This document shows positions 1,720-42,663 of a stretch of 64,000 nt of DNA, one piece after another (the first letter of the stretch is position 1; each line of letters starts with the position of its first letter). The DNA is from Mytilus edulis. Its lineage: Eukaryota. The stretch is from NCBI RefSeq assembly GCF_963676685.1, contig NC_092348.1, forward strand, positions 11,098,001 to 11,162,000. Direction: 5' to 3'. The notes under the pieces are model-generated. The model was not told the origin of the DNA. It searched no databases and saw only the letters and a program-made list of their open reading frames with translations. The position numbers were made by a program, and so were the translations under genes.

Positions 1720-2989
1720 TGTAAATCCTTTTAATAAATTGATATAGTAAAGTCTTCTAATTGTTCAGTTGCACTGTTCAAATCTACCAAAAGGGAATTA
1801 TTTTAGTTACCAGCTTCAACGTGTAGATGGTGAGGATTCTGTGATTTCTAAAGGATAAAAAAAAACATACATGGTAAAACTGACGAAGAAGTTAGCTTTA
1901 ATTAAAACAAGATCCAATTAAAAACAGATGTGTGGACTATATGTTCAAGTATGACACATATTTTATGAATTAAATTACATAAAAGATTAAAAAAGATCTA
2001 AATATAGACTAATATATTATATGTAGGCCTTCTTAAATATTTATTTATATATTTATCATATTTTAACATATGATTCTATGTATGTGAGTCTATATTGTAT
2101 TTCACTTATCTAAGAAATGCGCTGTTGGAGCAGTAGGTTTGTAACAAACGAACCGACGCCTTAGAAAGAATTCTTGACATCCTTAATGCTTTTTTACCTA
2201 TAGAATTTAAGAGTGATTTGTATGATTTCACTTTCAATGTTATAAATACTTGGTACAATTCCAACAATGGGCGTCTTAACGCAATGCTAATTCAACTGAT
2301 TTCTGATTTCTGATATCTTAAACTTCTGTTTTCAGCGAAACATAAACATAATGAAAAGCCAATTGAGTGAAAGTATATTTTTTACTCATGTAGGAAATTT
2401 CAAAACCAAACGCTTGTCGCCATATCAAATTAAGTTCACGGCGAGTGCCTTGCGACAAGAAAGTTCTGTTCTCCTTCAGATGTAGATCCTGATTTTTCGG
2501 GATCAATTTTTCTTATTTATTTGTCTTTTGTTCATTGATTGCCCTTCTGTATTCTGTGAGTGTTGCATTCCTTTTGTAATTTAGAAATTTTGTTATAAAC
2601 TTGATCATGAGTTAAAAAAAACAGAAGCCACAGACTTAAAGGAGTTCAATAGTACAGAAAATAGATAACCTGTCCTCTTAGTTTACAAAAATTAATAACC
2701 GATCCAAAACAAATCCTCCTGTTTTGGAGGTCAAACTGTGTGGTGCAAGAATCTATGAAATATATTGGGATGCTATGAATAACAAAGAAGCTAAATTCAT
2801 TCAAGTATGGACATCACAATATGGCAACTAATTACATAACAATTAATTGTGTAATAATTATGTCATAATGAAATTATCACAATTTGTATCCTTCTTCTTT
2901 CTTTTGGTACCTCATTTATAAAATTTAAAGAATGATGAGTGGAATTACATCAGTTTAAAGATGTCTGATTGGGGATGAAAAATCTTTGT

Positions 2990-4500
2990 ATTGTGCTACC
3001 TTAATACTGTATTCTTACCTCTTACTCTTTTTTTATTCCTGTCTATCTTTTTCAATAATGTAATTTATACTGATAGAAATGTGTGTCTTATGTTTGATAT
3101 GATCATTGGAAAAACACAGTTATATTTAACACACATTTCGTTGAAATCTTGCCGAATTAATAAAAATAGTAAAATAATGATTGGTTATTTTTTTATATTT
3201 ATATTTATATAGAAAGTTATATATATTTGTATTATTCAAATACACAGAGATAATAGAAAAAAATTGTTTAGCTTAAGATGAAATTGACGAAAGCGGATTT
3301 AACATCGTTATTCATACAAACCTGCAATTTTCAGCTTAAGACAACAGATCGGGAGGTAATTGGTCTGAGTAAATGTTTCCTTTAATATACTCTGAATGAT
3401 CTATGTTTTCGATGAGATTTATTTTTTTTCATTTAAATGTTTTTGATAAAAACGCATCAGACACGCCTTAAGTCTGTATTATTATTAACAGTGAAAATTA
3501 CTTGTCTAATTTTAACCAGTATTCTTACCTGGCACTTATTATTTTATCCCTGTCTATCCTTCTCAATAATGTAGTTTATACAGATAGAACTATGTGTATA
3601 AATTTGATATGGTCAGTCATGTAAAATTTCAAAGTTCTATTTAAAAAATATTTCGTCGAAATATTGCAAAATTAATAAAAATAGTATAATAATTATTCGG
3701 TTATTTTTGTTATCTTCATATCTATATAGAAAGTTATTTATAGTTGTATTATTTAAATACACGGATAATAGAAAAAAAATATTTTAGCTTAAAATAAAAT
3801 GATGAAAGCGGTTTCTTCCTAAACGCAATCATGTGTGCTTTACATTATAAATCAATTTAATTGAACTATAATGAAAGTTGTCTATTATTTGTAAGTAACA
3901 CGCTTATTGTAAACTACATATCAATTTGTATTATCAATAAGAAAATTTCGACAACTGAAAATAAAAGTTTTAAGTTACAGACATTTATTCACAGCAACAG
4001 TGAAAATTGCTCGTCTTATTTAATACTGTATTCTTACTTCTCACTCTTTATTTTATTCCTGTCTATCTTTTTTGACAACGTAATTTATACTAAACGAACT
4101 GCGTGCATTTTATTTGATATGGTCAATTTAAAAAACACGTCATTTCGTAGAAATCTTGCCAAATTAATAGTATATAGTTATCAAAGGTAATAATAATAGA
4201 ATATAATATTATAATGATTGGTTATTTTTTTTATCTTCATATCTATATAGAAAGTTAAATATATTTGTATTATTTAGATACACAGAAAATAGAAAATTTT
4301 CTATTTTAGCTTAAACTAAAATCATAAAAGCGGTTTTAACGATGTAATTAATACAAATCTGTTATTTACAGAATAAGACATCAGTTAAATATGTGAATTA
4401 GTCAGAGTATGGAATTCCATCAATGTACTGTTAATGGTCTGTGTTTTCGATTTCAATTATTATTTCTTATTATAATGTTTTTCTTAAAAACGAATCGGAC
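2990..4500. repeat. Degenerate tandem repeat, about 510-bp unit, about 3 copies
   Basis: TTAATACTGTATTCTTAC...CTGTCTATC...GTAATTTATAC...TATAGAAAGTT...GATAATAGAAAAAA...AAAGCGG recurs near 3001, 3512 and 4020. A further fragment lies at about 8236-8345. Confidence 0.75.
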
Positions 4501-15300: not shown

Positions 15301-15778
15301 CTGAAAGTGTTTGAGGTCAGACTGTGTAAAAAGTAAAATCACAAAAATGCTGAACTCAGAGGAAAATCAAATCAGAAAGTCCCTAATCACATGGCAAAAT
15401 CAAATGACAAAACACATCAAAAACGAATGGACAAAAACATATGCCTGACTTGGTACAGGCATTTTCAAATGTAGAAAATGGTGGATTAAACCTGGTTGTA
15501 TAGCGCTTAATCTCTCACTTTGTTGACAGTCTCATCAAATTCCGTTATATTTACAATGATGCGTGAACTAAAGAGATATAAAAAATAAAATAGTCAAAAT
15601 ATGGGCACAGCATTCATCATCGAGTGACAATTTTAAAAGAACAATTTAACAGAACACAAAAACATCTATCTACAAACACATACATTGGTTCGCGTGTCTG
15701 ACGTCAGAAAATTTTTAAATTAAACGTCACATATTTTTGTCGTTTTATATTTATACAAACAATTTTAAAATTTCAAAT

Positions 15779-15830
15779 AGTCTATTTCAAGGTTACCCAT
15801 AATACACCGCGCGCTGGCGGAGTTCCGGTT
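15779..15830 (+). repeat. Left TIR of the ISL2EU element (candidate promoter of the YqaJ gene)
   Basis: AGTCTATTTCAAGGTTACCCATAATACACCGCGCGCTGGCGGAGTTCCGGTT; ATG follows at 15884. Confidence 0.8.
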
Positions 15831-15883
15831 AAATGTAAACAAGGCGGCAAGAATGTAGAAATTGAAAAATTATACAGTGTAAA

Positions 15884-18800
15884 ATGTCTTCCGTTAGCAA
15901 AAAAAGCGTGTCAACATTAATCCAACCTCTTCCATTAACACCACAAACTTTTAAAGACGTAAAGAATTTAAACTTGAGGGACTTAAAACGCCTCTGTATT
16001 GATGCAAACATAAAAACTGATGGTGTTGGTCGGAACTCATTAGAAATCTTGTTATGTTTTGAGCTTAATATTTTGACATGTGGTAACAGCGAAAAAAACG
16101 ACTTTTGTATTAAGGAGCCAAAGATTGAAAATCATTTGTTAGATAAAAAGCAGCTACTAGAATTTCAGCAATTGTCCCCAAATTATCTTTTAAAATTGCC
16201 AGGATGGACAAAGCAGGTGCCAGATATAGACCTTGACCTGTCAATGGTAAAGAAGTACCTATTAAACTGTCAAGTGTCTGATTATGATAAAACCTCATTA
16301 CGACAGTATAAACTAACTAGAGCATATCAGCACCTTGATGCTAAACACCTCAATAATGTCTCCTTCAACCCAATTGTTGACAGTGACACATTTTGTGCTG
16401 TAAAAGCCAGCTGTTTGCCATCACAGAGTGGTGAAGAAGCAAAGACAAAGTATCTTCACATAATTATGGATCAGCACACATCAGAACCATATGGTGCATT
16501 TTGCACTTGCACAGTTGGGTAAGCTAAACTCTTCAGGGAAGATCATGAACATGGTCAATTAAATACATTTAGAAGTACATGTAGTATACATGTATAAGTC
16601 CAAATAATAATGACATATTGAAAGGCTATTTCATTTTTTACGCCTTCCTATGAGGACAGAAAAAAGCAAAAAAAAACAGCCTTTCAAGATGTCATAAATA
16701 TTTGTACTAATAAAATATATTTGGCCTAACCTTAACTCCTTATCTACATGTATAGTACCAAAATGCAGTGCTTGGTAAACAGTATTTATGTTTTGCATAT
16801 GACGAGCTTTCTGTTTCATGTGAATGGATAAAACTCAAATCTGGGGCTAATGCATTACCTAATACATGTATCTCTCAGCAAAATTGAAATGGTTTGTGCT
16901 TTCCCTTTATAATCAATATGAATTATTTAAATTTTATAGTTAAATGCAAAAACCTTTAATAAACCAGTTATGTTCTCCAAGGATAATTGCAATGTCTTTA
17001 TTAATAAAATGCAAATGTAAAGATATCAATAGCAGATAAAGATACATTTGAACAGAATGCATATATTTATAAATTTTGATCAATTAAAAACTGTTGTAAT
17101 GAGTAAAAATTGACTAATTTAACATAAGAACATGAACTGAAAAAAAAAATTCAAAGATCTTATGATGGTGTTAAATTGGTATCTTATTCAAATTATAATT
17201 AAAAATTGATATCCACATCATGAATAAAAAATCTATTTAATATGTTCTTTAATTTTTCAGACTGACTCAAGCATGTTCCCATATTGGGGCACTTTTGTTT
17301 TTATTGGCAGAAGTAGTATCAAGGGGGGAGAATTTACCAGAAGATAAGGCTGTTACAGAAAATTTATGCAGTTGGACAAATCCTAAAGGTTTTATTATGA
17401 GTTCCAATGACATTGACATTATTCCTTTTAAATTATTGTTTTATATTTTTACTGTGAAAAGATGCATGACGTTATTGTTTCAATGTTGAATTTTTTAAAT
17501 ATTGTTTTTCATGAAGAGTTCCTCATGATTGGTTGGGTTTTTAAGCAGACATGCACTAGTGCAGTTGTTTCACCCAGTTATACCATATACTCTCGCTGGC
17601 AATTTTTCATGAAGCTCAGTTATGTAAATTAAAAGTGGAAAAAAAAATTGTATTAGGTTTAACTCATGCATCTCTTTCATACAGTTACAAGTAAATGAGA
17701 CCTTTCATTGTTCATTTCCCCATAAAATTCATTTTAAACAAAACTTTATCTTCGTATTGATATCCAGATTTATAGTTATTTCTTTTTCCAATAATTATAT
17801 ATAAACAACCAAACATTTTTTTTTTTTTAATGATGTCAATGTCTGTTGCATTCATAATAAGGCTGACATAATTTGCAACTTTCCATTTTGAGCAACATGT
17901 TCTCCAGCTCAGAAAAATATAAGTCTACTCTTTGATAACAGCTCAGTCTACAGCCAATGACAGTTATAGCATTGTGTTTGAACTTAGTATACAAATAAGT
18001 ATATTCCAAAAAAGCTTTGATATTGATTCCCTTCTGTATTGTTACATGTATTAACTATCAGAGTCACCCATGCATTTATTGCACATGTTTAGCTACATGT
18101 ATGATCACCCAGGCTGATTTTTTTTTTTTTTTATCATATAATGGTATGTACATGTACAACGTAGCTGCTTTTGTCTGTTTAAAGCTCTCTGTTCCTGCAT
18201 CTATTTTCCTGTTGAAATTTGAAATAGTGTTAACTTGTTTTGTTGTATTTAAATTGTTGGCAATTTCACAGTGTTAAGAATATACAAGTAACATCATATT
18301 CTGTCAGCACATAAAGGAAAAAAGGATAAGAAACTTTTCTACATTGGCTAGAGGTATAGGGGGAGGGTTGAGATCTCATAAACATGTTTAACCCCGCCGC
18401 AATTTTGCGCCTGTCCCAAGTCAGGAGCCTCTGGCGTTTGTTAGTCTTGTATGATTTTGATTTTTAGTTTCTTGTGTATAATTCGGAGTTTAGTATGACG
18501 TCCATTATCACTGTACTATTATGCATATTTTAGGGGCCAGCTGAAGGACATCTACGGGTGCGGGAATTCTCGCTACATTGAAGACCCATTGGTTGCCTTC
18601 GGCTGTTGTTTGCTCTATGGTCGGGTGGTTGTCGCTTTGACATATTCACCATTTCCTTTCTCAATTTTATCATACTACTTAGTCACAGTGAAGGGGAGAC
18701 TACTCCTTATCAAATGGTGCAGGGAGTTTTTAAGTTATTCAGCATCATACTCTTTATATTATACATATATACCAGAAAGGAAAAGTGGTATTCTTTTTTG

Positions 18801-21800
18801 CCAATAGGACATTTATCCATCCGATTAGGCAGCAACCATTTGATTTTCTGGGGGGGGGGGGGGGGGGGCTATGGTTTTTTTTCCAGTTTTTGGAGAAAAA
18901 AATAATTTGTTTTTGATTCTGAGAAAAAAAAATTGTTTGTTTCACCCTCAGCTGCCACTATATGTTATGCTAAAATTGAAAGAAAAAAATTGTTTTCGAC
19001 TTGTCGTGAAAAAAATAGATTGTTTTTCGCTGCAGGTGAAAAAAATAATGTGTCAAAAAAAACCAACCATAGCCCCCCCCCCCCCCCCCCCCCCCCCCAA
19101 AATCAAATGGTTGCTGCCTTACATGAACTGTGGAAAAATATCAGTAATTATAATTCCCTCTCTTTCTCTCAATTTGATCTTTAAAATCAGAACTATTAAC
19201 AGTAAATTGTATTCTAGCATCAAATTGTCTGACCTATTTAAAAATCTTGACCTATTGTGTTTTGCTGTCCTCCTTTATCAATGAAATCTTCATAAAGATA
19301 ATTCACATCTAGCACATTTTATAACAAAAAAAATCCTTAGTACATGTATATATACATAGATATAGTCAGATATGGTATGAGTGCCAATGAGACAACTCTC
19401 CATCCAAATAACAATTTATAAAAGTAAACCATTATAGCTCAAATGTACGGCCTTCAACACATTGCCTTAGCTCACACTATAGTTTTAATTATTTTTTTTG
19501 GTACAAGTGGTTTTTTTTAATGGCTGTTCTATTTTTATTAAGGTGCCAAGGTTGAGCCTAAAAAAGGTGAAGACATTGATATTAGAAACAAACCTTCCAG
19601 TTTAAAAACACACATAAGTGACATTGCACCGAAGCTGTCTAAAGAGAGGCAATACCAAAGAACTCTTCAACTGTTGTATGACATAAGGAATGCTAATTCC
19701 AGAGATGCTATGCCTCCAATTGTCAACATTGTTGACCTTGCAAGATTCAGACCCGTGAAGCAACCAGAAGTGAAAGGACCATGGTCCATGCCAGACACAG
19801 TAACTGAATTTTATCCTGGTATTTGCTATGCAGAAAGTATAGATGTGGAAACAACACCACCATCATTAACGGAAATACCTCATCAACAGTTCCAATCTAT
19901 TGACGATAATGGTTACCAGGAGGGATTAAATACTTACATCAATTTAATTATGAAAACTTATAATCAAGCTGATATAAGCAAAATTGAAAACCTGACTAGA
20001 GGTCAATCTGCCAATGAAGAATGGTTTCGACATAGAATAGGGGCAATAACAGCCAGTAAGGTTGTCCGTGTACTAAGTAATAAGAAGAATCAAGATAATT
20101 TTTTGATTGATATTATGAAATACAAACCAGTTGATCTTTCCAGAGTAAAACCAATTCAGTGGGGTTTGAAACATGAAATAACTGCTTTAAAACAAATGAC
20201 AAAATTGTTTGAGCCAAAACATACAAATCTCCAAATTATTCAACCAGGATTGCTAGTAGATAGAACGTATTCATACCTTAGAGCGTCTCCTGATGCAATA
20301 ATGACATGTGATTGCCATGGTACAACTGTAATTGAAATAAAATGTCCCTATTCCAGCAGATATCTGACTCCAACTGTAGCTATATGTCAGAAAAAGATTA
20401 CATATGTTGGCATGGAGAAGGAAAACATGGTTTTGGTTAAGGGTCATCAGTATGGTTACTATGAACAAATTCAAACACAGTTAAATGTTTGTAAAGAAAA
20501 TAACGCAAAATTAGTTATTTGGACAACAAAAGGATTGCTTACGATAGATGTTCCATTTGATGAAATATATTGGACAACCATTATGTTACCAGCTATAAGA
20601 AGTTTCTTTGAGATGCATATAGCACCAGAAATTTTAACCGGCAGACTTAAAAAATCTTTGAACTCTCAGGACAATTTCAAAGACAAAGAGAAGTCTGACA
20701 GCAGTGAAGATTCTACAAATGAATCTTTCTCAGGTAATTTCATTTTCTGTGCTTTTTCCTTACTTAATCTGCGTTTGAACTTAATCACTGTAAGTAGACC
20801 CTAGTGCAAGTTTTTGTCATCACTGTGTGACATTATGTGTCTTCCCAAAATGGCAATATTCAAATTCCCATTTATATATATTTTTCCTTTGAATTGTTTA
20901 ACATTTATCATTCAGGTATGTTTCTTTGTACATAAATTAGGCCTTTGGTTCTCTCGTTCGAATTGTTCATATTTGTAACCTTTTATATGCAGTATGGGCT
21001 TTGCTCATTGTTAAAGGCCGTATGGTGACCTGTATTTAATAATTATAAATGTGTTATTTGGTCTCTTGTGGAAATTTGTCATATTGGCAATAATACCACA
21101 TCTTATTGTTAATATTTGATCATTATTTGAGGTTATATCTGTAAACTTCTATGTCATGATACATATGTAGGCTTTAATTGTCTCATTGTCAATCATATTT
21201 CATCTTCTAATTTTTTTTTATTTGATAATTTCAAATGCTACTAATTAGATATGGGGTTCTTTGATATGCCAAATCTAACTGTGTATGTAGTATTTTCAAT
21301 TGCACAGTATTGCGCAATAGCAAGAAATATCTAATTGCACAATATTGTGCAATAGCAAGAATTTCAATTGGAGTTATCTTTCATTGTCAAGAATAGGTAG
21401 TTGAATCAACTAAAATCATTGTTTTATACAATATATAATGTATATTCACTTTTACTACCAACTGATAAATTAAGACAATCTTTACCATTCAGTGATAACA
21501 AGCACATTTTTACATTTTAATATTTTATGATGTATTTAAATGAGTAATTATTGTTGCAAACTCCATTAGAAATTTTAATTGTGATTAGTTTTGGAATAAA
21601 TGATAGGGGGATGTGAAAAAAAAATGGGGGGGGGGGGGGGGGGAATTCAATTTTTCTCATTTGAAATTTCATAAATAAAAAGAAATTTCTTCAACCATTT
21701 TTTTGAGAGGATTAATATTCAACAGCATAGTGAATTGCTCAAAGTCAAAACAAAAATTTTAAGTTCATTAGACCACATTCATTCTGTGTCAGAAACCTAT

Positions 21801-23244
21801 GCTGTGTCAACTATTTAATCACAATCCAAATTTAGAGCTGTATCCAGCTTTGTGTTGTGTCCATACTTGCCCCAACCGTTCAGGGTTCAACCTCTGCGGT
21901 CGTATAAAGCTGCGCCCTGCGGAGCATCTTTTTGAGGTTGTTATACCACATTCATTCTGTGTCAGAAACCTATGCTGTGTCAAATATTTAATTACAATCT
22001 AATTCAGAGCTGTATCAAGCTAGATTGTTGTGTTTATACAGGCCTCAATTGTTCACGGTGCGCATGGCACAGCAATTTATTTTAATGATAGATCAAAAAC
22101 AATGTACACAACAAAAATGTTATTCAATACATAAAAAACAGGAGAACAAAGTATGAACATGTTTATAGAAGATGTTTCATATGCAAAACTATAATTATGA
22201 CAATTGATTACTTAAAATGGACAATGATGACATCATTCAACATGTTCAACTTAAATATATATAATGAATTAACAACCATTCAACTATGAAGGGGTATTTT
22301 CAATGTTTTGAAAGCATCAACTTATGGGTGTTTCTTTTTTTTTTTGCTGTGTGAATCAAATTATTTTTTTCAGCACTCACTTACATGTAACACTTTAATC
22401 AAAAATATTTTTTCAATCTGCTGCATCAAAAGATTTCTATCTTCAAAGGCAAAGGTTAGGAATAACAGAATAACAATATATTTTTAGAGAAAAAAAACGG
22501 AACCTACTTACAGTCGAATAGTTGTTCTTATAAACAAAGTACAGTTTATGAAATAAAAAAGATTTTAATTGCAAGTTAAATATCGGTAATCATAAAATTA
22601 ACTCCAGACCCCCCCCCCCCCCCCCCCCCCCAATATTAATAATACCGCAAGTATACATATACATGTATGGGCGTGTCACTGTGCTTAGTATTTTTTTAAT
22701 CAAAATCAATTTATAAATTTCAGTTGGAAGATGTATAAAATATGTATTTACGAATGATTTATTTGATCAAATTTCAGAAGAACAAGACAAGAATATTCAT
22801 CTTGAGGGCACCAATGATGATGATGAAGATAATAATGATGCTACTGATGATGTTGATGATGTTAATAATGATGCTGCTGATGATGTTGATGATGTTAATA
22901 ATGATGCTGCCGATGATGTTAATGACCAAAATTTGGCTGGTAAAGAATGTCAGGGATTAAAAGATTGTCAGAGTAAAAAAAGTGATTCGAGTCAGAACTG
23001 GAACTTAGGCTGTGCTTCTTACTGTAGAGACCACAAGGCACCTATATATTCCACAATTAAAGGAGAACTTATTGCATGTGACGCAAATATAGCATGTTCC
23101 TCCAATACATGGTACCATTTTTTCTGTGAAGGTTTTCGGAGGTTAAATATTGAACTTCACAGGGGCAAGAAGTATGTTTGTCAAAAATGTAGACCTTTGC
23201 ATGATCAGAGAGAGAATTTGAAAATGACAAATGGGTTTTTTTAA
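15884..23244 (+). CDS. Transposon accessory protein: SAP-like N-terminus, SWIM finger, YqaJ/lambda-exonuclease domain, acidic repeat, PHD finger; about 824 aa. Exons 15884-16518, 17261-17388, 19543-20733, 22724 (or 22778)-23244
   Basis: GT-AG joins keep the frame and rebuild the SWIM motif CTCTVG|LTQACSH. YqaJ motifs TRGQS..EWF..R.G.ITAS, ASPD, EIKCP, YYEQIQ. C-terminal C..C...C...C....H..C...C..C. No internal stops. Confidence 0.85.
18331..18672 (+). repeat. Interspersed repeat inside intron 2 of the YqaJ gene
   Basis: CCCGCCGCA...AGGAGCCTCT...GGCCAGCTGAAG...TTGAAGACCCA block. A degenerate second copy lies at about 53365-53690. Confidence 0.65.
18828..19118. mobile_element. Tourist/PIF-Harbinger-type MITE
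   Basis: TIRs GGCAGCAACCATTTGATTTT+polyG / polyC+AAAATCAAATGGTTGCTGCC; 3-bp TSD TTA (18825-27, 19119-21). Confidence 0.85.
21235..21932 (+). mobile_element. 3' part of a Helentron-type non-autonomous element in intron 3 of the YqaJ gene
   Basis: Ends in GCGGTCGTATAAA plus hairpin GCTGCGCCCTGCGGAGC. This sub-TIR is the reverse complement of TTTATACGACCGC, which starts the element at about 63945. Confidence 0.6.
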
Positions 23245-23673
23245 TTGATAATTGTGACAATTTAAATTCACTTTTCATACCATTTTAGAGTATGATAGAT
23301 ATGAATACATGTATTTGGTGCTTTTCAAAATCTGTTTACTTTTTGAATCTTCATGTAACTTAAAACACTATTTCAGGACACAAGCTCTAACAACTGATAG
23401 AATCTGAAATTCAAAATCTTTAAAAATTGCCTGATGTTCATTAAAAATTATAACCTGTTTATTGAATTATGGTTTTTAAGAGAGAGCATCATCTTGTTTC
23501 TTAATTTTATATAATAAATAAAAAAAAGACAAAAATTTCAAGACAATACAAACAATAACAAAACATGTAGATCTATCTGCAACTTGAAATAAATAAATAT
23601 TGAATGAATACAAAACATCTACATGTACAAGTATGAAATGGTCTTGAAATACACACACGACCAAGAAATCCAA

Positions 23674-26600
23674 CTACTTCTTCAAAATTGGGGTTTGAAA
23701 ATTCACCAAGAAAGCACATACGGTAAATATTTGTTCTGCCAAATCTTTCATTGATAGTTTTACCTCGCCATCTAGAATGTGGAAAGTTTTCACTCTCTGA
23801 ATGGCACGTTCGACATGAATTCTAACCTTTGAGATATCTTCAGACGTTCTGGCTTCTGAGCTTTTCAGTTGTGCTCTTTCTGTTCCCTTGAAAGACGGCA
23901 TGTGCAGCTTAACACCCATGTCATTTAATATACCACTTATCAAAAATCCCCTATCAGCCATTACAGAACCTTTATTGACTTCTAAATTATGAAGGAGATC
24001 AACTGAGTCGCATGTTATAAATTTATCTGATGCTCGACCACCATACATCCTGCTTACATAAGTTATCCCCATCTGTGGGCTAACACCAATCAAAAACTTG
24101 AATGTGTTGTGGTGCTTATAATTTGAGAAAACCTGTTTTCTTGCATCAAGTTTGCTTGGATTTTGAACAAATATTTCAGTGCAATCAATAATAACCCTTA
24201 CATCTTCAAAATCCTTCATAGCGTGTGATTGATTTTCATTCAATACCTCTTTTGAAGGTAGTTCACATAACTCCTTGAGATCAACATACATTAGATTTAT
24301 CCAAGAGCTGAAAATTTGTGAAACCAAACCAACACTGATTGAAAACCTGATTGCTAAATCTTCAACCAATAAGCCAACTTTGAGACGCACCATAGTTAAA
24401 AAGAATTCATCAATTAACGAAAGCTTCCTCTCTGGACCTCTTTTCCTATCAGAAAATGTATCAGGCATGCCTGCATCACCTTTCCAATATCTCATGTTTG
24501 TAGCCCTTGGTTCAAAATATTGAAATAAAGCATAGAAATTCTCATAATTTGAAAAGCCTGTCCAAAAAACCATGCGTTTAGGATTGTCCTTCATGTTTTG
24601 TAAGCTTAAAATCTGCTTAGCTTGGCTTTCATTAATTTTTTTCAGACGTTCAAGTTCATTCATTTTTTCTTTAATTTCAGGTAGATATTCTTTGATTAAC
24701 CAATAATTTCCTTTTTCTGTTTCTGTATTTATGTAATCATGATTATTAATCTGAGGTATTATTGGTTCATATGGCTTCTTATCTAATGGACGCCCTACTT
24801 GATTATTGGCGACAGTGATATCTTGAAATAATCTTTTTTTTCTCTGTCTGGTCTTGTTTTCTAACTGCCCTGTAGGACGAGATGTATGTGTATTTGTTAA
24901 AGGTATATTATAGTATAGAATAGATATATGTAGATTATCAGGTTTTCTGCACCTCTTTATTTGAAATATCATCTATTATCCAAAATGTGAACTTTTGTAA
25001 CGATAAAGTACCAAAAAAAGAAGCCTGCTTTATCACCATTATTTATGACTGTTTTTAAATTTTGCCTAAGTATTACATTGTATCTGGAAAAAATACTTTA
25101 TCTTAATTTTCAAAGAACTGGTTTAAAATCAGAGTTTTTGTTATTTAACCTCAAATATTGTATTATTTTCTTTATATCGGAGATCAACTATGGAAATATT
25201 TGATTTTTTCAACTATAACTTAATATTATTAAGTGCCAAATATTTGCTCACTTGACCAAAGGGCCAGTTGAATTTTTACTACATGTATCACTTGGTGTCA
25301 ATGATTGATGTTTATGTTGTTTTAAACTTGATAATTTGATAGGATGTATGTCATATAATTTCATTTCATCAGTGTTTTCTGTTGTAAAGATATAGAATGT
25401 CTAATAAGGACTCTGATGCATTCATGTCAGTTTGCACATCTTTTTTATGAAATAATTAATTTAAGCCTCAGGGACACAAAAGTGTGTGAGGGATGTACAT
25501 GTGTATGAGTAACTAGTGAAATAATTACTGTCTGTCTATTTTTTATTTGTTCTTCCATCACATTATTTTTATTGTAAAATATCAATAAAACTTGTCTATT
25601 GACAATTGTTATTTTGACAGTTTTGACTATTTTAACAGCACAGCTGATCATGATCAATAATTTGCCATTAGCGTCATTTAATCTAAAATTTTAAAAGAAG
25701 TTTGATTTTTTGCAATGATGAATTGACCCGTTTGACAAAATTTTCTTGGATTTAAGCAAATTGATTGTAAACCAAATAATATAGGTCAAGGTTTCAGCAT
25801 TTTAAATGCAAGAAATAATTTGCTGATGGTGATATTAATTGTGTATCACTAGATAATATTGTTGTACTTTTTACTGTGTTGTTGTTAATATATTTGGCAG
25901 AATATTGTATTTTTACATGTATTAAATTGTACTAACCATCAATTACTTGTATTTCTTGTTTAGTTGAATTACTTGTTTTTCTAGCTGGTGTTTTCTTTTG
26001 ATATGGGAACAGAGTAGGTATGTAACCTTTTTCTGTTGATGATGTCTGTTTCGTGCCTATAAGATATGCAACAATCAGTACTTTAGAAACAAATAAATAA
26101 CCTCCTGTCAGACTTGAACTGACATCCCTTGATGAAATGGTATCACCAAGTGTACTTCCTTGTACTAAGAAGGTTTCTTAAAAACAAGTACTTAACTGAT
26201 GCAATCTCTAGCATGTCTAGTTATGAGCAAAATATATGGTACATTTGTATAAGGCCTCCACAAGTTACAATCTGGTATGGAAATGCACTGATCTATATTA
26301 CTGTTTAAAGATATCAAGACTTTCTATACTAACGGGACTGATTACTTATAACAATGTCTATACAAATTATCAAACTGATCTCGGCTGTAGCGGATACATG
26401 TAGTATAGAAAGTCCCTGTTTAAATCTATGAAAGGTTAAAGTCCCTGTTTAAAGCTATGAAAGGTTAACAAGCTGGCTGTGGTCCTATATTTTTGTTATT
26501 ATTATATTGATATGTGCACTTAAAAACAAACAATGAACATGATAAACCAAACAATTGACAAATTATCATTGTGAAAATGATTCACCATTTAGTTGTATCA

Positions 26601-27027
26601 CTCAGATCTTATCTGGTTATAACTTCCCATACAATCATAAAATTATCAAGTGGTCAAGACTATTTGTAAGTATTCAATCACTCATCAGCTATTTAACACT
26701 GTCTGAAAAAAATTATGTGTCGCTGCAATTAATTCAATACCTATGGTTAGTATACAAACGTAACTTGCCTCCTTCAAAATGATCGGAACATATCCGATCA
26801 AAGGGTCTTGGTTCCCAATGATCTCTCCTTATCATTTTGGTCCAGGTACTTTTCTGTTTCTCGTCTTTGGGAAACCTGTAGTACGACCTTTTAACTTCAC
26901 TGCCCTTGTCTTTCCCCCTTTGATTGCTGCATCCAGGGACACAACAATAATCTCCATAACTAGTCTTTTTCTTTCCACATAATTTGGGTTGCAAATTCTC
27001 AGACTCGGATAACTGGGCGTTTTCCAT
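23674..27027 (-). CDS. THAP-HTH-DDE (DDE_Tnp_4, Harbinger/ISL2 family) transposase, about 524 aa. Exons 27027-26769, 26056-25937, 24869-23674
   Basis: THAP motif CCVPGC...RFP...W...R...ICSDHF is completed by YIPTLF in exon 2. HTH region (EFFLTMVRLKVGL..EDLA.RF.IS). Catalytic IIDCTE, MADRGF and RIHVERAI are intact. All joins are phase 1. Confidence 0.88.
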
Positions 27028-27039
27028 CAGTTATCTGTA

Positions 27040-27091
27040 AACCGGAACTCCGCCACGACGCTGAGGATTATGGGTAACGGTGAAAGACAGT
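27040..27091 (-). repeat. Right TIR of the ISL2EU element (candidate promoter of the transposase)
   Basis: Reverse complement reads ACTGTCTTTCACCGTTACCCATAATCCTCAGCGTCGTGGCGGAGTTCCGGTT; transposase ATG at 27027. Confidence 0.8.
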
Positions 27092-28159
27092 ATGGGCAAT
27101 ATTAGCATACAGTTTTAAAAAATCAAAAGTATGTAAGAATTAATTACAGAAATAGACCGAGATTTATAAATAGAATTTATAAGAATCCACAAATAGTTCA
27201 TTCCACTTCGTGATTGAATAATTTTGACGTTTGTGGTTCAACGTATTTTCTAATTAAGAGCTAACGCTCAGGATAAAATTCGAATATCACGGCCCAGGCC
27301 ATGTGTAAATTTCCAACAATATATGGCTTCAATGAATTATTTCGATTCTAATAGGACAAATACGGTCATTAAAAAACTGAAGCGAGGGTGGGTATGCTGT
27401 GAGTGTGGCTGTTCATTTTTACTCCCTGTTAGATAAAGCTCAAACATCTTTATAAATATGTAGCTTGCGTAGGTTATTCGATTCCATGAATAACTGCTAG
27501 AAAAAAACTTTTTAATTCTTTAAATTCTCAAACCCAACATTTGCCATTTTTAATTTACATGTTTTTCTCGTAAGCTTCCATCAAATCCAAAGTTGACATT
27601 TTGTAACTAAGGAGCCGCCATGTTGACTTGCTGAAATGAGTAAATATGCGAATAATGCAACAGAATAGAAAATAAAACAAAATATACCTCAAAAATCAGT
27701 TTTAATACAATATCATACGATTTCCGATGGTTCACGTAACAGAAAACTTTCAACTTTAGCGGTTTCATTTGTATGACATCTGTTTTGAAATGACTTAAAA
27801 GCGCCAAAAAGATTAATAGACTTTCGCGGAATTTTATTTAATTTTTATTTTGTTGATTTCTCCGAGCTCTTGTGCACTACTTCTTTTTATCGTTGTCAGT
27901 TTGTTTTAGATTTATGAGTTTGACTGTCCCTTTGGTATCTTTCGTCCCTCTTTTATTATGCATACGAATAAGAAAAAAAAATATTTTGTCTTTTTTTAAT
28001 TGCCCTTTTTAAAACAATAAAATCGGCAATGGGTCTGCAAGTAGGTTCCAATACATGTAGATTTACGTGGGAAGTTTATTGTTACAGCCATTATTATGTA
28101 TATCGCTGAGTCTGCGCTAAGTATATTTTATCGCGAATTTTATCCCAGTGTTGTTTACA

Positions 28160-33320: not shown

Positions 33321-36300
33321 TTAACCAACAAAATTTAGAATATAAAAATGATGTGCCAACCTGTTTTAGTTGTATAGGGATTGAAGATCAGGAAAAAGAA
33401 CAAAGTTAACAAAGCAAAGTATCAAGTATTACAAGTACAGTTACGCAACTACCAGATCAACCCGTAATTAGACAAATTTTACCTGATGGATTAGTTAAAG
33501 AAAGCATTCCTACTCCAGTAACTGTAGCAGATGAGTATCAGTCAATCAAATACAAACAAGAATGTTATTACAACAACTGTTCCAATACTACAGACTGAAA
33601 AGAAGCAACAAACAATCCCCAAAGAGACTATACCAACAGCCAACATCAAAATGTTGTGAACTTCGTCAAAAAGAAATTAAGATGAGAAAATGGGAAGAAG
33701 ATTTGAAAGTACGAGAAAAAAGCTTACTCGATAGTAATGAGAGATACATACGTCTAGAAACATATATAAAAAGACTAGAAAGTGAGAAGGAAGAATACGA
33801 AAACACAATCAGAACACTGAAAAGAAAGATTTTATATATGGAAGACACACACTATTATCCCATAAGCAACAATAATGTACAAGACCAGGGCAGATCAACC
33901 AACGTTCCAGAGAACACTGAATTGCTTGAAAATATCCACAAGAAAGTCACAAATTATATCTTGCGCCAAGTTGACATACAGTTTCAAAAAATCGAACATG
34001 TTCATCTTGAGCCGAATGACAGCAAAAATAGAATTAACCAACATAAACAGCCCAACCAAATCAACCCAATGACAACTTCGTCTTGTGCAATGGAGGATAA
34101 TAACACTGTAACTTGAGACAGTAATAAACCCAATTTAAAAACTGAAAGAGCAAAATCTCATTGTGATACTGACAGTTCAGCAAGACCAAACAGTCTTCAA
34201 AACATCCGAGATCAAACATCAAGACCCAGCTGTACAACACCTGAGAAACAATATATTGCTGTTCCACAACAGACTCTGCCTTGCCATTTATCAGGTCAAA
34301 TTATAGTGCATATTCCAATAAACAATAGAAATGCAGGATACTATCGTTCAAATTTGCCACCAACAATATCCCAAAGAACAAACTCCAACTATGAAAGAGC
34401 ATTCACTCCACTAATTAATTAAAGTCAAAACTGGAATGGTGGTAGTAATATAAAAGGAAATATGTCAAGTAGAACACAACATATAGAACAACAAATTTAA
34501 TACCCATGAGGCATCCAACTAAATCCAAAATAGATAACGCTACTATTCTAAAAATGGTAGCATTTAACTGCAAGAACATCAAAACCAGCACTACTGCAGT
34601 TAATAAATTATTGGAGAATAATAACATAATTCTCATTCAAGAACATTGGTTGTTTCAAATACATTTAATTAATGAAATAGACACTAATCTAAATTTTGAA
34701 TTTTGAAGGTAACGCAGTTGATACGTACAATAACATACATCCAGCCCAAGTACCCAGGGGATATGGGGGAGTTGCAGTTATTTTGTTAGACTAATCAAAA
34801 TGTGTGAAATAAGACATATTACAAAATTGTCAATGTCAGTTGTTTGTAAAGTTTGCTTCAAAACTGTTGTATGAAATCTTGAAAATCGTTGTAGAATGGC
34901 TTTGGCAAAAAAATGATTGTACATTTCTTTTTTCTATGAAAATAATGTTCTTGGATAATCCAGAAATGTCACAGTTTTTATTTTACTGCTATTTACAAAA
35001 ATGTAGAAGTTCACATACAACATTTTGGAAGCATGCATTTTGCCAAAATTTTCAAAGCCTGTTTGTGAGATATTGTTTTCTTGAAAAATTTGTAATTTAC
35101 AACATTTTAGAAGCCCAGCGACGTTATAGATTCTAAACATCAAATTCTAGTTTACATTTTCAAAAAGGATTAATTCCAGATCTACTTAAAACAGGACTTC
35201 TCTCTCCAGTATTTAAGAACAAGGGATCAATTTTGGAAATAAAGAATTATCGTGGCATAACAGTTTTCCAAGTATTTTGTAAGATCATCGAATCTATCCT
35301 GAAATTAAGAATTCGTCCAATAGCTTTACCAATTCAATTTACTTTACAAAGAGATTTCGCACAGAACTCAGCTCCATTAAATGCGTCATTCATTTTAGAA
35401 GAGGTAAATAGAGAATCGTTAGATTTGGGAAAACTCCTGATAATAGTTTTATTAGATGCAAAGTCAGCCTTTGATGTTGTGGTTCATCAAAATCTAATGC
35501 TAATTTATATCATCTTGGAATACAAGACAGACATTGGAATCTCATCAACAATCTCCATAAACATGCTTCATTTGTAATAAAACTTAATGGAAAAATGTCA
35601 AATGAATTTATCATTTCACAAGGAGTGCGTCAGGGCGGTTTTCTCAGTGCGGATTTTTACAAGATGTATATATAGACCCACTGCTACACCATTTACAACA
35701 CCCTAAGGTAGGAAACAAGATCGGTCATATACCATGTTGTGCAACAGCCTGTGTGGATGACGTTACTTTAAACACGACAGATCCAAACGAAGCGCAAATA
35801 CTGCTAAACATGGCTTATGAATACAGTTGTAATGAACACTACAAAAGAGGGACGAAAGATACCAAAGGGACAGTCAAACTCATAAATCTAAATAAACTGA
35901 CAACGCAATGGCTAAAATAAAAAGACAAACAATCAACAGTACACAACATAGAAAACTAAAAAACACAATTACAACCACAAAAAAAGTGTTATTGAGATAG
36001 AGAACAACAAAAAAAGACATAATTGTAAAGATCTGATATTGAAAGACAAGAAGTTACCAGTTGTAAAACAAGCAACACATACAAAGATCAAAGTCTAAAA
36101 AGAAAACGTTAAATAATACCATCAATGAGAACATAAAAAAGCAAAAAGAACAGCATATAGTCTCATGGCTGCAGGTTTTCATGGAAACAATGGTTTAGAT
36201 CCAAGCAACTGTATTCATATTATGAAAACATATGTCTTTTTTTTTTTTTTTAACGATAACAAATATTTTTATTCAATTATTTCCTGCTATATAAATACCT

Positions 36301-37808: not shown

Positions 37809-40800
37809 CTACATATTTCCGATAAAGAGTTCAATTTTTAATCTACATATATATTTTATATCTGACCGTAGTAAAAGTAATTTTAATTCGTTTTTCATAT
37901 GCAATTTTAACAAAGCCTGTATAGACTGCATACTCAGTTTATTTTTTTCGAATTTGCATTTATTACGTATTTTCCAAATAGCCCATTTAAAATAAAGTAT
38001 TATTGCGTTAACAATTATATTATTCGAATTATCTAAACAGATTCCTAATAGAATATCTTTTTCAACGAGTGCATCGTTATTTATTAAGTTACACAGTTGT
38101 AAATTTCTGATAACTGTTTCTATCAATGGTTTAACATTGTTACATTGGTAAAATAAATGCTCAAGAGTTTCAATGTTATTGTTTTCATCACATAAGTGAC
38201 ATTTTCCATTTGACATACGCATTATTTGCAGTCTGTTTTCTGTATATATAATCCTGTGTATACATTTCCATTGAAACTCTTTAACTTTTCTATTAATATC
38301 CAGTTTACTGAGATTTAGCCAAATTTTTTCCCAATTTATGTACTCGCTATACAAATTTTCCCATTTTGTTTGACATATAGGGGTCTCAGTTATGTTTAAG
38401 TTTAACTGAAGATATTTTAATGTCAAATCTTTGATTTTAATGATTTTGTTATCTGGATTTATAAATTCAAAGTTTTCAGAAATTTTGATTTTGTAGTTTT
38501 TTAAAGTGCGTTGTACATCGTTATTTCTTAAAACCTGTATAAAAGTTTGCGGTACGGCACTTTTAATTCGTGAATATTCCGAAATACAATTGCGTCTATC
38601 TATAAGTTGTTGATATATTTCATTGCACGATTTAAACTCATTGGTATTATCATCCCATATATCACCAATGGTTTTTATTAGACTTTTTGAAAAAGAAGAA
38701 TAAAATATAGATTTTCTTTGAAATAAAATATTTGAGTTTCCAAATAAAGGCTGTTTTTTTACTTCCATTTTATTAGTTATTATACCCTGTGTGATCCTTG
38801 TCAATTTTGACCACGATTGTAAAGCGTTTTTGTAATAATGTGGTAGTTTTTTTATCTCAAGACCTGAAAGGTCTGAACATCTACACAGAAAAAGTTTATC
38901 TGCAAATTTTTTATCATATTTTTTTAACCAAAATTTACCTATCGCATTCCAACTTGATAATGGCTTGTGTAATATTGAATATATCGATTTGATATATTTA
39001 CTTTCTATCCAACTATCCAAATTTACCATCCCCATGCCCCCCTTTTTGCCGTCTAAACAACAAACCTTCCGGTCTACTTGATTCACTTTACCATCCCAAA
39101 TAAAATCCCATATTATCTTATTTAAGTCTTTTTTATGTTTTTCAGGTATACCTCTTATTTCTAATTCATAACCACACACTGAAATAATTAAATTTTTAAC
39201 AATAAGGACTTTTCCAGAGTATGTCAATTTTCTACTTTTCCAGATGTGTACACAATTTTGTACTTTTTCCAATATTGATTTCCATATTTTATCGTTATCA
39301 ATGTTATAACCATGGTGAATACCTAATGTTTTTATGTTATCTGTTGTCCAGCTTATCTTTTTAAAAGTAGGCCGTTTGCGTTTATTTGCGCCAATATTTA
39401 TTCCCTTAGTCTTTTCGTAATTAATTTTTGAACCCGAGGCCTTTTCGTATTTGTCTAATATTTCGAAAGATTTTCTAACGGAACTTTCATTTTTATTAAA
39501 TAATTGCGTGTCATCAGCAAACATATTCAATTTGGTTTCTATTAGCTCCCCATTTTCTTCCCCGGGCAGCATAATACCTGCAATGTCTTTGTCTGCCCTT
39601 ATTGCACAGGCCAGGGGCTCTGCTTGTAATATATATAAAAAAGGGGCTATAGGACACCCCTGCCTGGCTGATCTAGAAATTGAAAAATATTTAGAGACGT
39701 AACCATTTGTTTTTATACATGTCTTAGCACTTTTTAATAGCATTTGAACCCAACCACGAAAATTGTCCCCAAAATTAAATTCCTTCATAACGAAGTCTAG
39801 CCATCCCCATTCCATCCTATCAAAAGCCTTTTGTTGGACAAGAAAGACAATTATACCCTCTTCATCCTCACTATCAATATATTCTATGATATCCTGTATC
39901 ATTCTATTTGCTTCCGTTATATGTCTGCCTTTTACAAACCCTTTTTGATCGGGATGTATAAGCTTAGGAAGGACTATTTTTAATCTTTCTGCTAGTATTT
40001 TTGCTATAATTTTATAATCACAATTCAGTAATGTAAGAGGGCGCCAGTTACGTATGTTTTCTCGTTCCCCGCCCTTAAATAGTAGTGTTAAAACTCCTTT
40101 ATATTGTGAGTCCGACATTGTTTTTTTATTAAATATTTCTTGCAATAACGTTAAAAATTCCTCTTGAATTGTATTCCAAAATAATATATAAAATTCTGAT
40201 ATGATCCCGTCCTCCCCTGGGGATTTATTTGTTTTTATAATTTTTAGAACTTTCATTATTTCCTCCGCATTAATTTCACGGTCTAGTAATTGTTTGTCGT
40301 CCTCATTTAGTTTGTTTTCGATATGGCTTGTTAAATATTGAGCATTTTCCAAATGCCATCCTTCGGAACTAAATAAATTTGAGTAAAATTTAACTTGTTC
40401 ATTTAGTATTCCGTCTATATTGTGTTTATAATGCCCATTTTCTGTTTTTATTCGACTCCATAATTTATTTTTACCGTTTTGCTTTTCAAGATTGAAAAAG
40501 TAGCTAGACGATTTTTCACCTTCTTCCGCCCATTTTACACGCGCCCTTATTTTTGACGCCTCTGATTTGTTCTCATAGTATTTTTTAATTAGCGCTTCTA
40601 TTTCTGAAACCTTATTTTCAACCTCACCAGAGTTATTACTGTTTAAATTTAGTTTTTCTAATTTCTGCTCAAGGTTAATAATATAACTTTTTTGAGAATT
40701 TTTGTTTAATGTTTTACTTACTTCCATTGTTAATTTTTTTATTTTTAATTTTGTGACATCCCACCAATCTTGTATTTTTTCGAACCTTTTTTTTTTCAGT

Positions 40801-41637
40801 TTTCCAGGTTTCCCACCAAATTTTGAATGCATTCTTAAATTCTTCACTTTTGATTGTATTTATATTCATTATCCATATACCCGGGCCTCTTTGTATTTCA
40901 TCAAGTTTTAATTTTACCGACACAAGATCATGATCGCTAAAAGGACAATTCGATATACCAACATTGTAAACTTTATTTGAAAGACTTTTGTCACAAAAGA
41001 TATAGTCGATTCTAGACTTAGAATTTCCTCTCTGAAACGTATACCGTTTGTCTTTTGGATACCTATCTCTCCATATGTCTGTAAGATCATATTGTGACAA
41101 TAAAAAAAGTAATTCCTTTGTACCAATATCATCACGAGAGTGAGAAGGATTTCTATCATTTGTTTTGTTAAGAGTACAGTTAAAATCACCTACCAAAATA
41201 TTGTAATGATCTACACTATCGTCTGTAAAATTACCCAAAAAATTATGAAATGATTCAAACAGCCGTTTCCTGTCGACGCCGCTATTGTTAGCATAAATAT
41301 TTGAAATATGATAAATCGCACTTTCCGTTTTTATGCTACATTTTATTATTCGACCGTTTTGTGAGTTAGTATTATCAAACACAACTTCGCCGGGACAATT
41401 TTTTGTTTGTAAAATAGAGACACCACGAGAATCACTAGTTCCGCAGTTCCAAACACTTGTATTGCCCCCATTTATTTTCCATTCATTTTGCCACTGTATT
41501 ATATCATTCACTGTGCAATGTGTTTCTTGTAGACAAATCAAATCATATTTTTTGTTCGCTAACCAATTGAAAACTAAGTTACGTTTTTTGTTATCACGTA
41601 AGCCGTTTACATTCAATGTTATGATTTGGATCGACAT
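37809..41637 (-). pseudogene. LINE ORF2 (AP endonuclease, RT, CCHC), about 1275 aa once one frameshift is corrected
   Basis: APE motifs TLNVNGL, LQETH, GDFN, SRIDY, FSDH. RT motifs KSPGEDG, NWRPLTLLN.DYK, RQGCP, FADD. C-terminal CHLC...ETLEHLF..C. Frames shift in an A10 run (40787-40796). Confidence 0.9.
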
Positions 41638-42663
41638 TCTTATTTAAAGTACTTGATTTGGTTTACATTTTAACACCGCTATGCCTCGTTGATTTATTTG
41701 AAAGTTTACGATCAACGACACCGATTTATATTTACTTTTAATTTTACGAGTCATTGACCAATTATGGCAATACACTAGTAGTGAACACATTTCAAATTGT
41801 CTATATAAAAATATAACAATACAGATACAAAGATTCAGTTTGAAGTACAATAGATTGAAAAAAAATCTATAATAATAATTCAAAATCTGCAATTCAGTAA
41901 AATAAAACATATTTACAAATAACATTTTGGATTAATTTTTTGTTTCATAGTTTTACATAAAAGTCACAAAACATATGTCTTACTAACATTACTTTATGGT
42001 CTAGTGATACTGATACCAACTAAATTAAACATTAATAAATGGGTTTTTTTTCAAAAACTGCTTAAACAGATTTGGTCTCTACCGCAAAATGCTCCTGATG
42101 TTGTACCTTACATTACATCTGGAATGAAACCAAGTGAGGGACAAATACATATACTTTTACAGTATATGTTTACTATCAGAGGAATCAACTGAAAAAAAAA
42201 TTGCCAAATGACAGTTAGCAGTCAAAGATCAAAATAGACACAGTTGGTTTATTGAAGTAAAGAAAATTATTTGGAAATATGATCTTCCAGAAATTTATCT
42301 TTTTTTAGACACTCCACATACCAAAATTCAGTGGAAAAATTTAATGTATAATAATATAAATAAGTATTGGAAAAAGTACTATACAGATATCTCCAAGCTA
42401 AATAGCTCTATTTAGAAATATAAATTATTTAAATGTTGATGCATACCACCCTGGAAAACAACACCCGTTAATTTATATCAAAACATCATCTTCAAGAAAC
42501 ATAAACCGTCTACCTATTAAGTTAAAACTAGTTTCTGGTACATACATTCTCCAAGAAAACAGATCGAAATTTAATCAGAACAATATTGAAGCCACCTGCC
42601 TTCTGTGCGGACAAGAAATTGAAGATTTACCTCACTTTTTATTGTAATGTACATTTTCAGAAT

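What the first reader, a model, noticed from the sequence alone, without database searches (positions are those of the whole stretch)
15779..27091. Complete two-gene ISL2EU-type transposon pairing a DDE transposase with a SWIM-YqaJ-PHD exonuclease
Seen: both ends, an AT duplication, and two convergent spliced genes with all catalytic motifs intact (D-D-E; PD...EIK...Q). Known: ISL2EU elements encode a THAP-DDE transposase and a YqaJ protein; YqaJ belongs to the phage lambda-exonuclease family, and PHD fingers commonly read histone tails. To my knowledge the role of the exonuclease in transposition has not been established. Inference: a candidate active system in which a chromatin-reading 5'-3' exonuclease resects donor or target ends, or steers insertion. 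It is the best candidate in this window for a reconstitutable, poorly characterised system.
Basis: partly seen in the sequence, partly recalled or inferred. Interest (0 to 1): 0.75.

Follow-up and report, generated by a model that had tools for sequence, protein, structure and literature searches.

The report
Intact ISL2EU transposon with PHD nuclease
This is a complete copy of an already described type of two-gene jumping element (ISL2EU) in what is likely a mussel genome; its second gene codes for a predicted DNA-end-chewing enzyme with a likely histone-reading finger, the enzyme's job is untested, and the finger is missing from many relatives.

Summary
Observation confirmed. 15779-27091 is a complete ISL2EU DNA transposon: 53-bp imperfect inverted ends, an AT duplication shown by uninterrupted copies of the host repeat, and two convergent genes that splice into open frames (524-aa THAP-HTH-DDE transposase; 806-aa SAP-like/SWIM/YqaJ/acidic linker/PHD protein), collinear with scallop homologs. 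The DDE triad and the lambda-exonuclease catalytic and 5'-phosphate residues are intact. It is mobile, not domesticated, but rare: one full copy and one 97.8%-identical half copy were found in the assembly. The family is published, and this scan met intact ISL2EU elements before in other genomes. Additions here: (1) the PHD finger is optional (58 of 121 database homologs; 1 of 4 other young families in this genome), so chromatin reading is not the core mechanism; (2) contigs of runs guessed to be RNA skip exon 2, which shifts the frame, and run unspliced across the transposase's catalytic exon, so this copy may be held off. Likely mechanism (inferred): the nuclease resects the broken donor site so that repair from the sister chromatid restores the copy. 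New member of a known kind.

The parts
15777..15778 (+). left copy of the AT target-site duplication
15779..15831 (+). left terminal inverted repeat (starts AG; 41 of 53 identical to the right one)
15884..16518 (+). partner gene exon 1: SAP-like helices, beta-sheet module and first half of the SWIM finger (C207, C209)
   Evidence: SAP and SWIM labels by homology only
17261..17388 (+). partner gene exon 2 (128 nt, not a multiple of 3; weak donor AAG|GTTTTA): second half of the SWIM finger (C217, H219); skipped in the spliced contigs seen
19543..20733 (+). partner gene exon 3: YqaJ / lambda-exonuclease domain (W415, R419, E466, S503, D505, E519, K521, Y560, Q563)
22778..23244 (+). partner gene exon 4, coding part: acidic linker (43% D/E over aa 650-700) and PHD finger (C730, C734, C752, C758, H765, C768, C786, C789; W763)
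23245..25889 (.). stretch covered without splicing by contigs of guessed-RNA runs, across transposase exon 3 and into transposase intron 2; inferred long 3' end of the partner gene, antisense to the transposase (strand not shown)
   Evidence: table 8 (X17 record 13: 22921-25889 in one piece; X6 record 30: 23555-25646)
23674..24869 (-). transposase exon 3: coiled coil, HTH_Tnp_4, DDE_Tnp_4 (D355, D432, E480); acceptor predicted
25937..26056 (-). transposase exon 2: end of the THAP domain (YIPTLF)
26769..27027 (-). transposase exon 1: THAP zinc finger; GC splice donor
   Evidence: junction spacing equals that of scallop P0167
27039..27091 (-). right terminal inverted repeat (starts AC)
27092..27093 (+). 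right copy of the AT target-site duplication
18177..19480 (.). nested high-copy repeats in intron 2 of the partner gene (includes a 42-bp inverted pair 18827-19119); bounds approximate
21251..22062 (.). nested high-copy repeat in intron 3; the half copy on C6 begins inside it

Best explanation
This is a structurally complete, low-copy ISL2EU cut-and-paste transposon whose THAP-DDE transposase likely cuts it out and inserts it at AT, and whose second protein is a predicted 5'-phosphate-dependent 5'-to-3' exonuclease that would chew back the broken ends left at the donor site so that repair from the sister chromatid restores the copy. Shown: ends, AT duplication, a second insertion site, two open spliced frames, intact catalytic residues, lambda-exonuclease fold. 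Inferred: (a) THAP binds the inverted repeats and the DDE core excises and integrates; (b) the SAP-like/SWIM module ties the nuclease to DNA or to the transposase; (c) the nuclease acts on the unprotected donor ends, turning cut-and-paste into net copy gain; (d) the PHD finger is an optional lineage add-on that would bias the protein to H3K4-methylated chromatin; (e) in the tissues sampled this family is probably damped, because exon 2 is skipped and the partner transcript likely runs antisense through the transposase. Odds: ISL2EU member and recently mobile about 0.95; nuclease catalytically needed in the life cycle about 0.8; donor-end resection as its job about 0.45.
For: Ends, duplication, empty sites. 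Family signature D(22)K(29)D(23)D(18)P(24)R(3)E fits the published PHIS spacing (against passages of PMC4122938). Nuclease: W415, E466, D505, E519, K521, Q563 are unchanged in 122 of 122 aligned rows, R419 in 113, S503 in 110; these align to lambda Exo W24, R28, E85, D119, K131, which PMC7496540 names as 5'-phosphate pocket and active site (passages). AlphaFold model of the scallop homolog (mean pLDDT 79.7) matches LHK-Exo and lambda Exo best (E 2.3e-7, 7.2e-7). All four other families examined in this genome keep the convergent pair and AT. Other superfamilies carry lambda-type exonuclease, RecQ or DEDDh partners (passages of PMC9587614); 5'-3' exonucleases and RecQ helicases are the tools of end resection (own knowledge). 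Mobility: C6 copy with another right flank; X6 record 24 has 333 foreign letters left of 15776. Splicing: X17 record 10 joins 16517 to 19542; all four runs stop at 20729 with 102 further letters, the expected leftmost cut of the exon 3-4 joint.
Against: No result here shows which DNA ends the nuclease acts on, or that it is needed; the resection step rests on family logic only. The homologs were collected with a profile of the same protein, which favours conserved motifs. Only one full copy and one half copy were found, with no family of short non-autonomous copies, so present-day activity is not shown. The exon-2-containing mRNA needed for the full protein is supported by homology and by one M. 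coruscus gene model (P0159), not by a contig seen here. Target context is A-AT-G, not the published A|AT|T, and the ends start AG/AC, not GG. The transposase exon 3 acceptor has a poor pyrimidine tract, and the M. coruscus model P0162 appears to use an acceptor 27 nt upstream, where this copy reads AA. The runs are only guessed to be RNA, and contigs show no strand.
Confidence: 0.5

Rival explanations
1. The nuclease works inside the transposition reaction: it trims the non-transferred strand or donor flaps at the element's ends or in the strand-transfer product, so that the transposase alone cannot finish a jump.
For: Both Harbinger genes are needed for transposition (passage of PMC9179366). 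Nuclease residues are invariant and the pair is kept in all four other families examined. Precise 2-bp duplications suit a short, controlled trim better than long processive digestion.
Against: Related Harbinger, Spy and IS5 transposases have no nuclease partner. Lambda-type enzymes are processive on free 5'-phosphate ends, whereas element ends are expected to be held by the transposase (own knowledge).
Confidence: 0.25
2. One reading: the partner is chiefly a chromatin reader that steers insertion or cutting through its PHD finger, like RAG2.
For: The PHD is closest to ING1/ING2 fingers (E about 0.001); the tryptophan before the zinc-binding His/Cys is present in 43 of 43 fingers found with a pattern that allowed W, Y or F; an acidic linker precedes it and the genes are convergent, as in RAG1L/RAG2L-A (passages of bioRxiv 2023.08.20.553239).
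Against: PHD found in only 58 of 121 database homologs and in 1 of 4 other families here; F1 and F2, with copies up to 99.8% and 99.3% alike, stop right after the nuclease. The ING methionine is leucine (L749) and the N-terminal tyrosine is missing. A strongly acidic linker occurs in 3 of 45 PHD-bearing homologs. This copy sits inside a repeat.
Confidence: 0.12
3. The partner is a brake: it degrades excised elements, or its exon-skipped 215-aa product and antisense 3' end repress the transposase, and the family persists at low copy for that reason.
For: Exon 2 skipping stops the frame at codon 216; shown in X17, implied by piece ends in X6 and X18. One piece covers 22921-25889 unspliced. Copy number is low.
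Against: A pure brake would be easy to lose, yet the nuclease is conserved across phyla. Skipping may simply follow from the weak donor of exon 2. Strand is not shown.
Confidence: 0.1
4. A domesticated, fixed gene pair kept by the host.
For: Only one full copy found in the assembly; exon 3 is held in 20 listed runs of 15 studies under five organism labels plus a metagenome; introns are long.
Against: Ends and duplication intact inside a high-copy repeat; second copy 97.8% identical, introns included, at another site; a third left flank in X6; the M. coruscus model is fused to a sacsin-like host frame that is not beside this copy.
Confidence: 0.03

Closest known systems
ISL2EU group of the PHIS superfamily (Han et al. 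2014 PMC4122938; Han et al. 2015 PMC4482050, including oyster ISL2EU-1 to -4_CGig in Table S2)
   Same: AT duplication, short inverted ends, THAP-HTH-DDE transposase of about 525 aa, second gene with YqaJ exonuclease, animal host, PHIS residue spacing.
   Different: 11.3 kb against an average of about 4.8 kb (4.0 kb coding; the rest introns with nested repeats); partner of 806 aa against 200-646 aa in the Table S2 rows seen; SAP-like, SWIM and PHD parts are not named in the passages and supplements searched; ends AG/AC and target A-AT-G.
PIF/Harbinger transposons
   Same: DDE_Tnp_4 transposase, two genes, AT-rich target.
   Different: TWA duplication and a Myb/SANT partner instead of a nuclease.
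KolobokE (Kojima and Bao 2022, PMC9587614)
   Same: Animal DNA transposon with a PD-(D/E)xK lambda-exonuclease-like nuclease of untested role.
   Different: [quoted passage not shown]
Phage lambda exonuclease and LHK-Exo (YqaJ family)
   Same: Fold and the W24/R28 phosphate pocket and E85/D119/K131 active site.
   Different: Eukaryotic multi-domain protein without a Red-beta annealase partner; trimer ring not tested.
RAG1L/RAG2L-A transposons
   Same: Works-like analogy only: convergent gene pair, partner ending in acidic hinge plus PHD.
   Different: Unrelated transposase, kelch core instead of nuclease, 5-bp duplication; no homology.

Membership tests
ISL2EU | 2-bp AT target-site duplication | tested here: met
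ISL2EU | transposase with THAP, HTH and DDE domains | tested here: met
   (PF05485, PF13613, PF13359)
ISL2EU | PHIS spacing D(19-29)K(29)D(18-40)D(11-19)P(18-28)R(3)E | tested here: met
   D355, K378, D408, D432, P451, R476, E480 (motif)
ISL2EU | second ORF with YqaJ exonuclease domain | tested here: met
ISL2EU | terminal inverted repeats of 6-259 bp | tested here: met
   53 bp, 41 identical
ISL2EU (published tendency, not treated as defining) | ends usually begin GG; target usually A|AT|T | tested here: not met
   Ends AG/AC; target A-AT-G here, AT-C on C6. Families F2-F4 of this genome also start AG or AC, F2 with T|AT|A; a 74.6%-alike sister end on C10 starts GG.
ISL2EU | transposase groups with Repbase ISL2EU in a tree; six group-specific residues | not tested
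   No labelled Repbase sequences at hand; the figure with the residues is not held
PIF/Harbinger | TWA duplication and Myb/SANT partner | tested here: not met
KolobokE | TTAA duplication | tested here: not met
lambda-exonuclease (YqaJ) family | catalytic E/PD/ExK and 5'-phosphate pocket W, R | tested here: met
lambda-exonuclease (YqaJ) family | fold | tested here: met
   model of homolog P0013, TM 0.75 to 3syy by target length
lambda-exonuclease (YqaJ) family | trimeric ring and processive 5'-3' activity | not testable with these tools
   needs biochemistry
H3K4me3-reading PHD finger (ING type) | Cys4-His-Cys3 zinc ligands | tested here: met
H3K4me3-reading PHD finger (ING type) | methyl-lysine cage (Tyr, Met, Trp; ING roles recalled) | tested here: inconclusive
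   W763 kept, Met is L749, Tyr absent
H3K4me3-reading PHD finger (ING type) | binding to methylated H3 tail | not testable with these tools
   needs peptide assay

The most novel reading that the evidence does not exclude
A large ISL2EU subgroup has independently built a RAG2-like partner (convergent gene, acidic hinge, H3K4me-reading PHD) on an end-resecting exonuclease, and this mussel family is switched off P-element-style: skipping the 128-nt SWIM exon makes a truncated repressor while the same transcript runs antisense through the transposase, with the full protein made only in the germ line.
Probability: 0.15. Interest if true: 0.72.

Novelty: new member of a known kind. Interest (0 to 1): 0.36.

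Why it matters
Several animal DNA transposon groups carry their own nuclease or helicase, and the papers searched hold no test of what it does. An intact element with mapped exons and residues makes that testable. If the nuclease resects donor breaks, it would explain how cut-and-paste elements secure copy gain. The optional PHD finger offers a natural with-and-without comparison inside one genome. The element itself is an ordinary member of a published family, and simpler, younger families in the same genome are better test objects.

Tried and rejected
No RNA holder was listed as on record; the four runs laid are RNA by guess only. In one search no listed contig joined the transposase exons or contained exon 2 spliced to its neighbours, and 26397-26807 had almost no cover; the tables were cut (111 joints and 12,638 pieces not shown), so this is no evidence either way. 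A closer second look at the exon 1-2 region was not obtained, so inclusion of exon 2 and the source of the 29-71 foreign letters left of 16201-16203 stay open. A second structural aligner for the N-terminal module was busy; Foldseek listed no clear match for that module. Single-sequence fold of P0002 failed (pLDDT 33) and was discarded. phmmer of the transposase against solved structures found nothing. Alternative exon 4 acceptor at 22724 is also in frame (824 aa) and cannot be told apart by the contigs; 22778 was preferred because M. coruscus models use it. A THAP-type TxxGGGx(A/T) site lies in both ends (motif recalled, seen only in a search listing) but in only 1 of 4 other families, so it was not used. 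Substitutions between the window and the C6 copy or the contigs are too few for a selection test. My first two exon 3 boundaries were off and were corrected. The PHD count (43 of 101 with a strict pattern) and (58 of 121, looser pattern) both depend on gene models that may lack a last exon and on a profile that included the PHD.
Full report
Setting. The window lies in a 1.37-Gb assembly (G000:C5). The nearest named proteins are from Mytilus coruscus (89% and 97% identical), so the host is likely a Mytilus mussel.

1. The observation. The two ends match at 41 of 53 positions as inverted repeats; none of 20,000 random pairs from the window reaches this. AT stands on both sides. The flanks belong to one high-copy repeat: of 19 other copies read (of 40 listed), 17 run from the left flank straight into the right flank, 15 of them with one AT, and none has two. 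Contigs in runs X16, X18 and X6 show the same uninterrupted form. The duplication is therefore exactly AT and the boundaries 15779 and 27091 are right. A second copy on C6 ends at the same base, followed by AT and other DNA.

2. The genes. The minus-strand gene splices through a GC-AG and a GT-AG intron into 524 aa with THAP, HTH_Tnp_4 and DDE_Tnp_4. The spacing across the GC junction equals that of a scallop protein. D355, D432 and E480 are kept in 102 of 105, 106 of 106 and 106 of 106 aligned rows with a letter there (106 rows, chosen from 120 listed hits). The plus-strand gene has four exons and 806 aa and is collinear end to end with the 808-aa scallop protein P0013 (named). Its order is SAP-like helices, a beta-sheet module with the SWIM motif, YqaJ nuclease, acidic linker, PHD. 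SAP and SWIM rest on homologs, not on a Pfam hit in the window's exons. In the nuclease W415, E466, D505, E519, K521 and Q563 are unchanged in 122 of 122 rows; they align with lambda Exo W24, E85, D119, E129, K131, and R419 with R28. PMC7496540 (passages) names W24 and R28 as the 5'-phosphate pocket and E85, D119, K131 as active site. The fold of P0013 (pLDDT 79.7) matches LHK-Exo and lambda Exo best. The PHD is nearest to ING1/ING2, keeps the key tryptophan, but has leucine for the ING methionine and lacks the tyrosine (roles recalled).

3. Mobility and copy number. DNA and pattern searches of the assembly found the full element once, a right-half copy on C6, short or old fragments on C9 and C11, and one diverged sister end on C10 (these searches give lower bounds). 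The C6 copy is 97.8% identical over 5 kb, carries a 1352-bp insert in the transposase and begins inside a nested repeat. Exon 3 is held by 20 listed runs from 15 studies under five organism labels and a metagenome; the best holder may be the source. One contig in X6 has 333 foreign letters left of the element, a further insertion site. The family is mobile on a recent time scale but rare, and not domesticated.

4. RNA. All four runs laid are guessed RNA and are unstranded contigs. All four stop at 20729 with 102 more letters, the leftmost cut expected for the exon 3-4 joint. X17 record 10 joins 16517 to 19542, exon 1 to exon 3. Pieces in X6 and X18 also begin at 19542, whereas an exon 2-3 joint would begin at 19540, so the same skip is implied there. 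Exon 2 is 128 nt; skipping it stops the frame at codon 216, though an ATG at 16491 in another frame could give a 561-aa nuclease-PHD protein. Exon 2 is real: the long homologs have its sequence, and of two M. coruscus models at one locus one includes it and one joins exon 1 to exon 3. Its donor is weak. Contigs also cover the PHD exon, the gap, transposase exon 3 and most of transposase intron 2 without splicing (X17 record 13, 22921-25889). The simplest reading, about 0.65, is a long 3' end of the partner gene antisense to the transposase; unspliced minus-strand RNA or DNA carry-over are not excluded.

5. Is the PHD part of the mechanism? A protein search of the assembly gave 149 YqaJ-like matches. 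I read ten copies of four multi-copy families. All four have the same convergent pair and AT targets; ends start GG, AG or AC. Only F3 showed a PHD; F1 and F2 end right after the nuclease although their copies are up to 99.8% and 99.3% alike. Among database homologs 58 of 121 have a PHD, and its presence is patchy on a quick tree (28 changes, 9 forced by well-supported branches, shuffled mean 42; gene models may be cut, and the profile favoured PHD bearers). The constant part is SWIM module plus nuclease; the PHD is optional.

6. Mechanism. Shown: anatomy and residues. Inferred: the transposase excises and inserts; the nuclease, with an intact pocket for free 5'-phosphate ends, most likely resects the donor break and pushes repair to the sister chromatid, which restores the copy (0.45-0.5). 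The reasons are indirect: other superfamilies carry lambda-type nucleases, RecQ helicases or DEDDh nucleases (PMC9587614, passages), and unchecked notes of this scan report an Exo1/XPG nuclease with the same SAP-SWIM module in algal elements. Rivals: trimming inside the transposition reaction (0.25), chromatin targeting as main job (0.12), a brake (0.1), domestication (0.03).

7. Comparison and literature. ISL2EU is defined in PMC4482050 (parts 1-2 of 4 read; supplements searched, 30 of 41 places in file 1 seen) and PMC4122938 (passages); PMC9179366 (passages) reports expression in fish and says no proof of activity had been reported. Searches for ISL2EU with YqaJ (3 papers) or exonuclease (7) and two searches on SWIM, PHD and accessory nucleases (listings only) showed no functional test and no title or abstract on a PHD in ISL2EU; the Han 2015 supplements hold neither 'PHD' nor 'SWIM'. 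Repbase and most subscription journals are not searchable, and UniRef already labels the M. coruscus proteins SWIM-type and PHD-type. The RAG2L-A likeness (bioRxiv 2023.08.20.553239, passages) is analogy, and a strongly acidic linker occurs in 3 of 45 PHD-bearing homologs. This scan has noted intact ISL2EU elements in other genomes.

8. Verdict. Real, intact, correctly named; a new member of a known kind. The open question about the nuclease is real but belongs to the whole family. The optional PHD and the exon-skipping and read-through pattern are modest additions. Interest 0.36.

Noticed in passing
window 16201-16203: Contigs of three runs (X16, X17, X6) leave the element here with 29-71 foreign letters to the left; an AG after a pyrimidine run lies at this place, a possible cryptic acceptor inside exon 1. 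M. coruscus models likewise fuse a sacsin-like host frame into exon 1.
   Followed up: partly
G000:C6:45122321-45123672: 1352-bp insert in the transposase of the half copy, with 12-bp inverted ends starting GGG and a CAA repeat at the borders; likely a non-autonomous DNA transposon.
   Followed up: partly
L064-L083 (G000 C8, C10, C4, C7, C6, C5, C3, C2): Four other young ISL2EU families (6.4-13 kb) with near-identical copies; F3 has a PHD fused straight to the nuclease and asymmetric AC/AG ends like this element.
   Followed up: partly
L102 (G000:C10:16435566): Left end of a sister family, 74.6% alike, starting GG after AT.
   Followed up: partly
G000: 149 YqaJ-like matches in the assembly, several in open frames of 600-1050 aa that may belong to another transposon group such as KolobokE.
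   Followed up: no
window 871-1764 (-) and 47055-48011 (-): Two single-exon alpha-kinase family frames (Pfam PF02816).
   Followed up: partly
window 37809-41643 (-): LINE with endonuclease and reverse transcriptase in two overlapping frames, i.e. one frame break.
   Followed up: partly
window 27905-27954 and 35843-35892: Perfect 50-bp inverted pair 7.9 kb apart, just right of the element.
   Followed up: no
window 61353-62336 and 3028-4500: Tandem arrays with periods of 114 and about 515 bases.
   Followed up: no
P0002, P0003, P0006, P0009 and kin: One branch of partner proteins has a PHD-like finger with Cys in place of the zinc-binding His.
   Followed up: no
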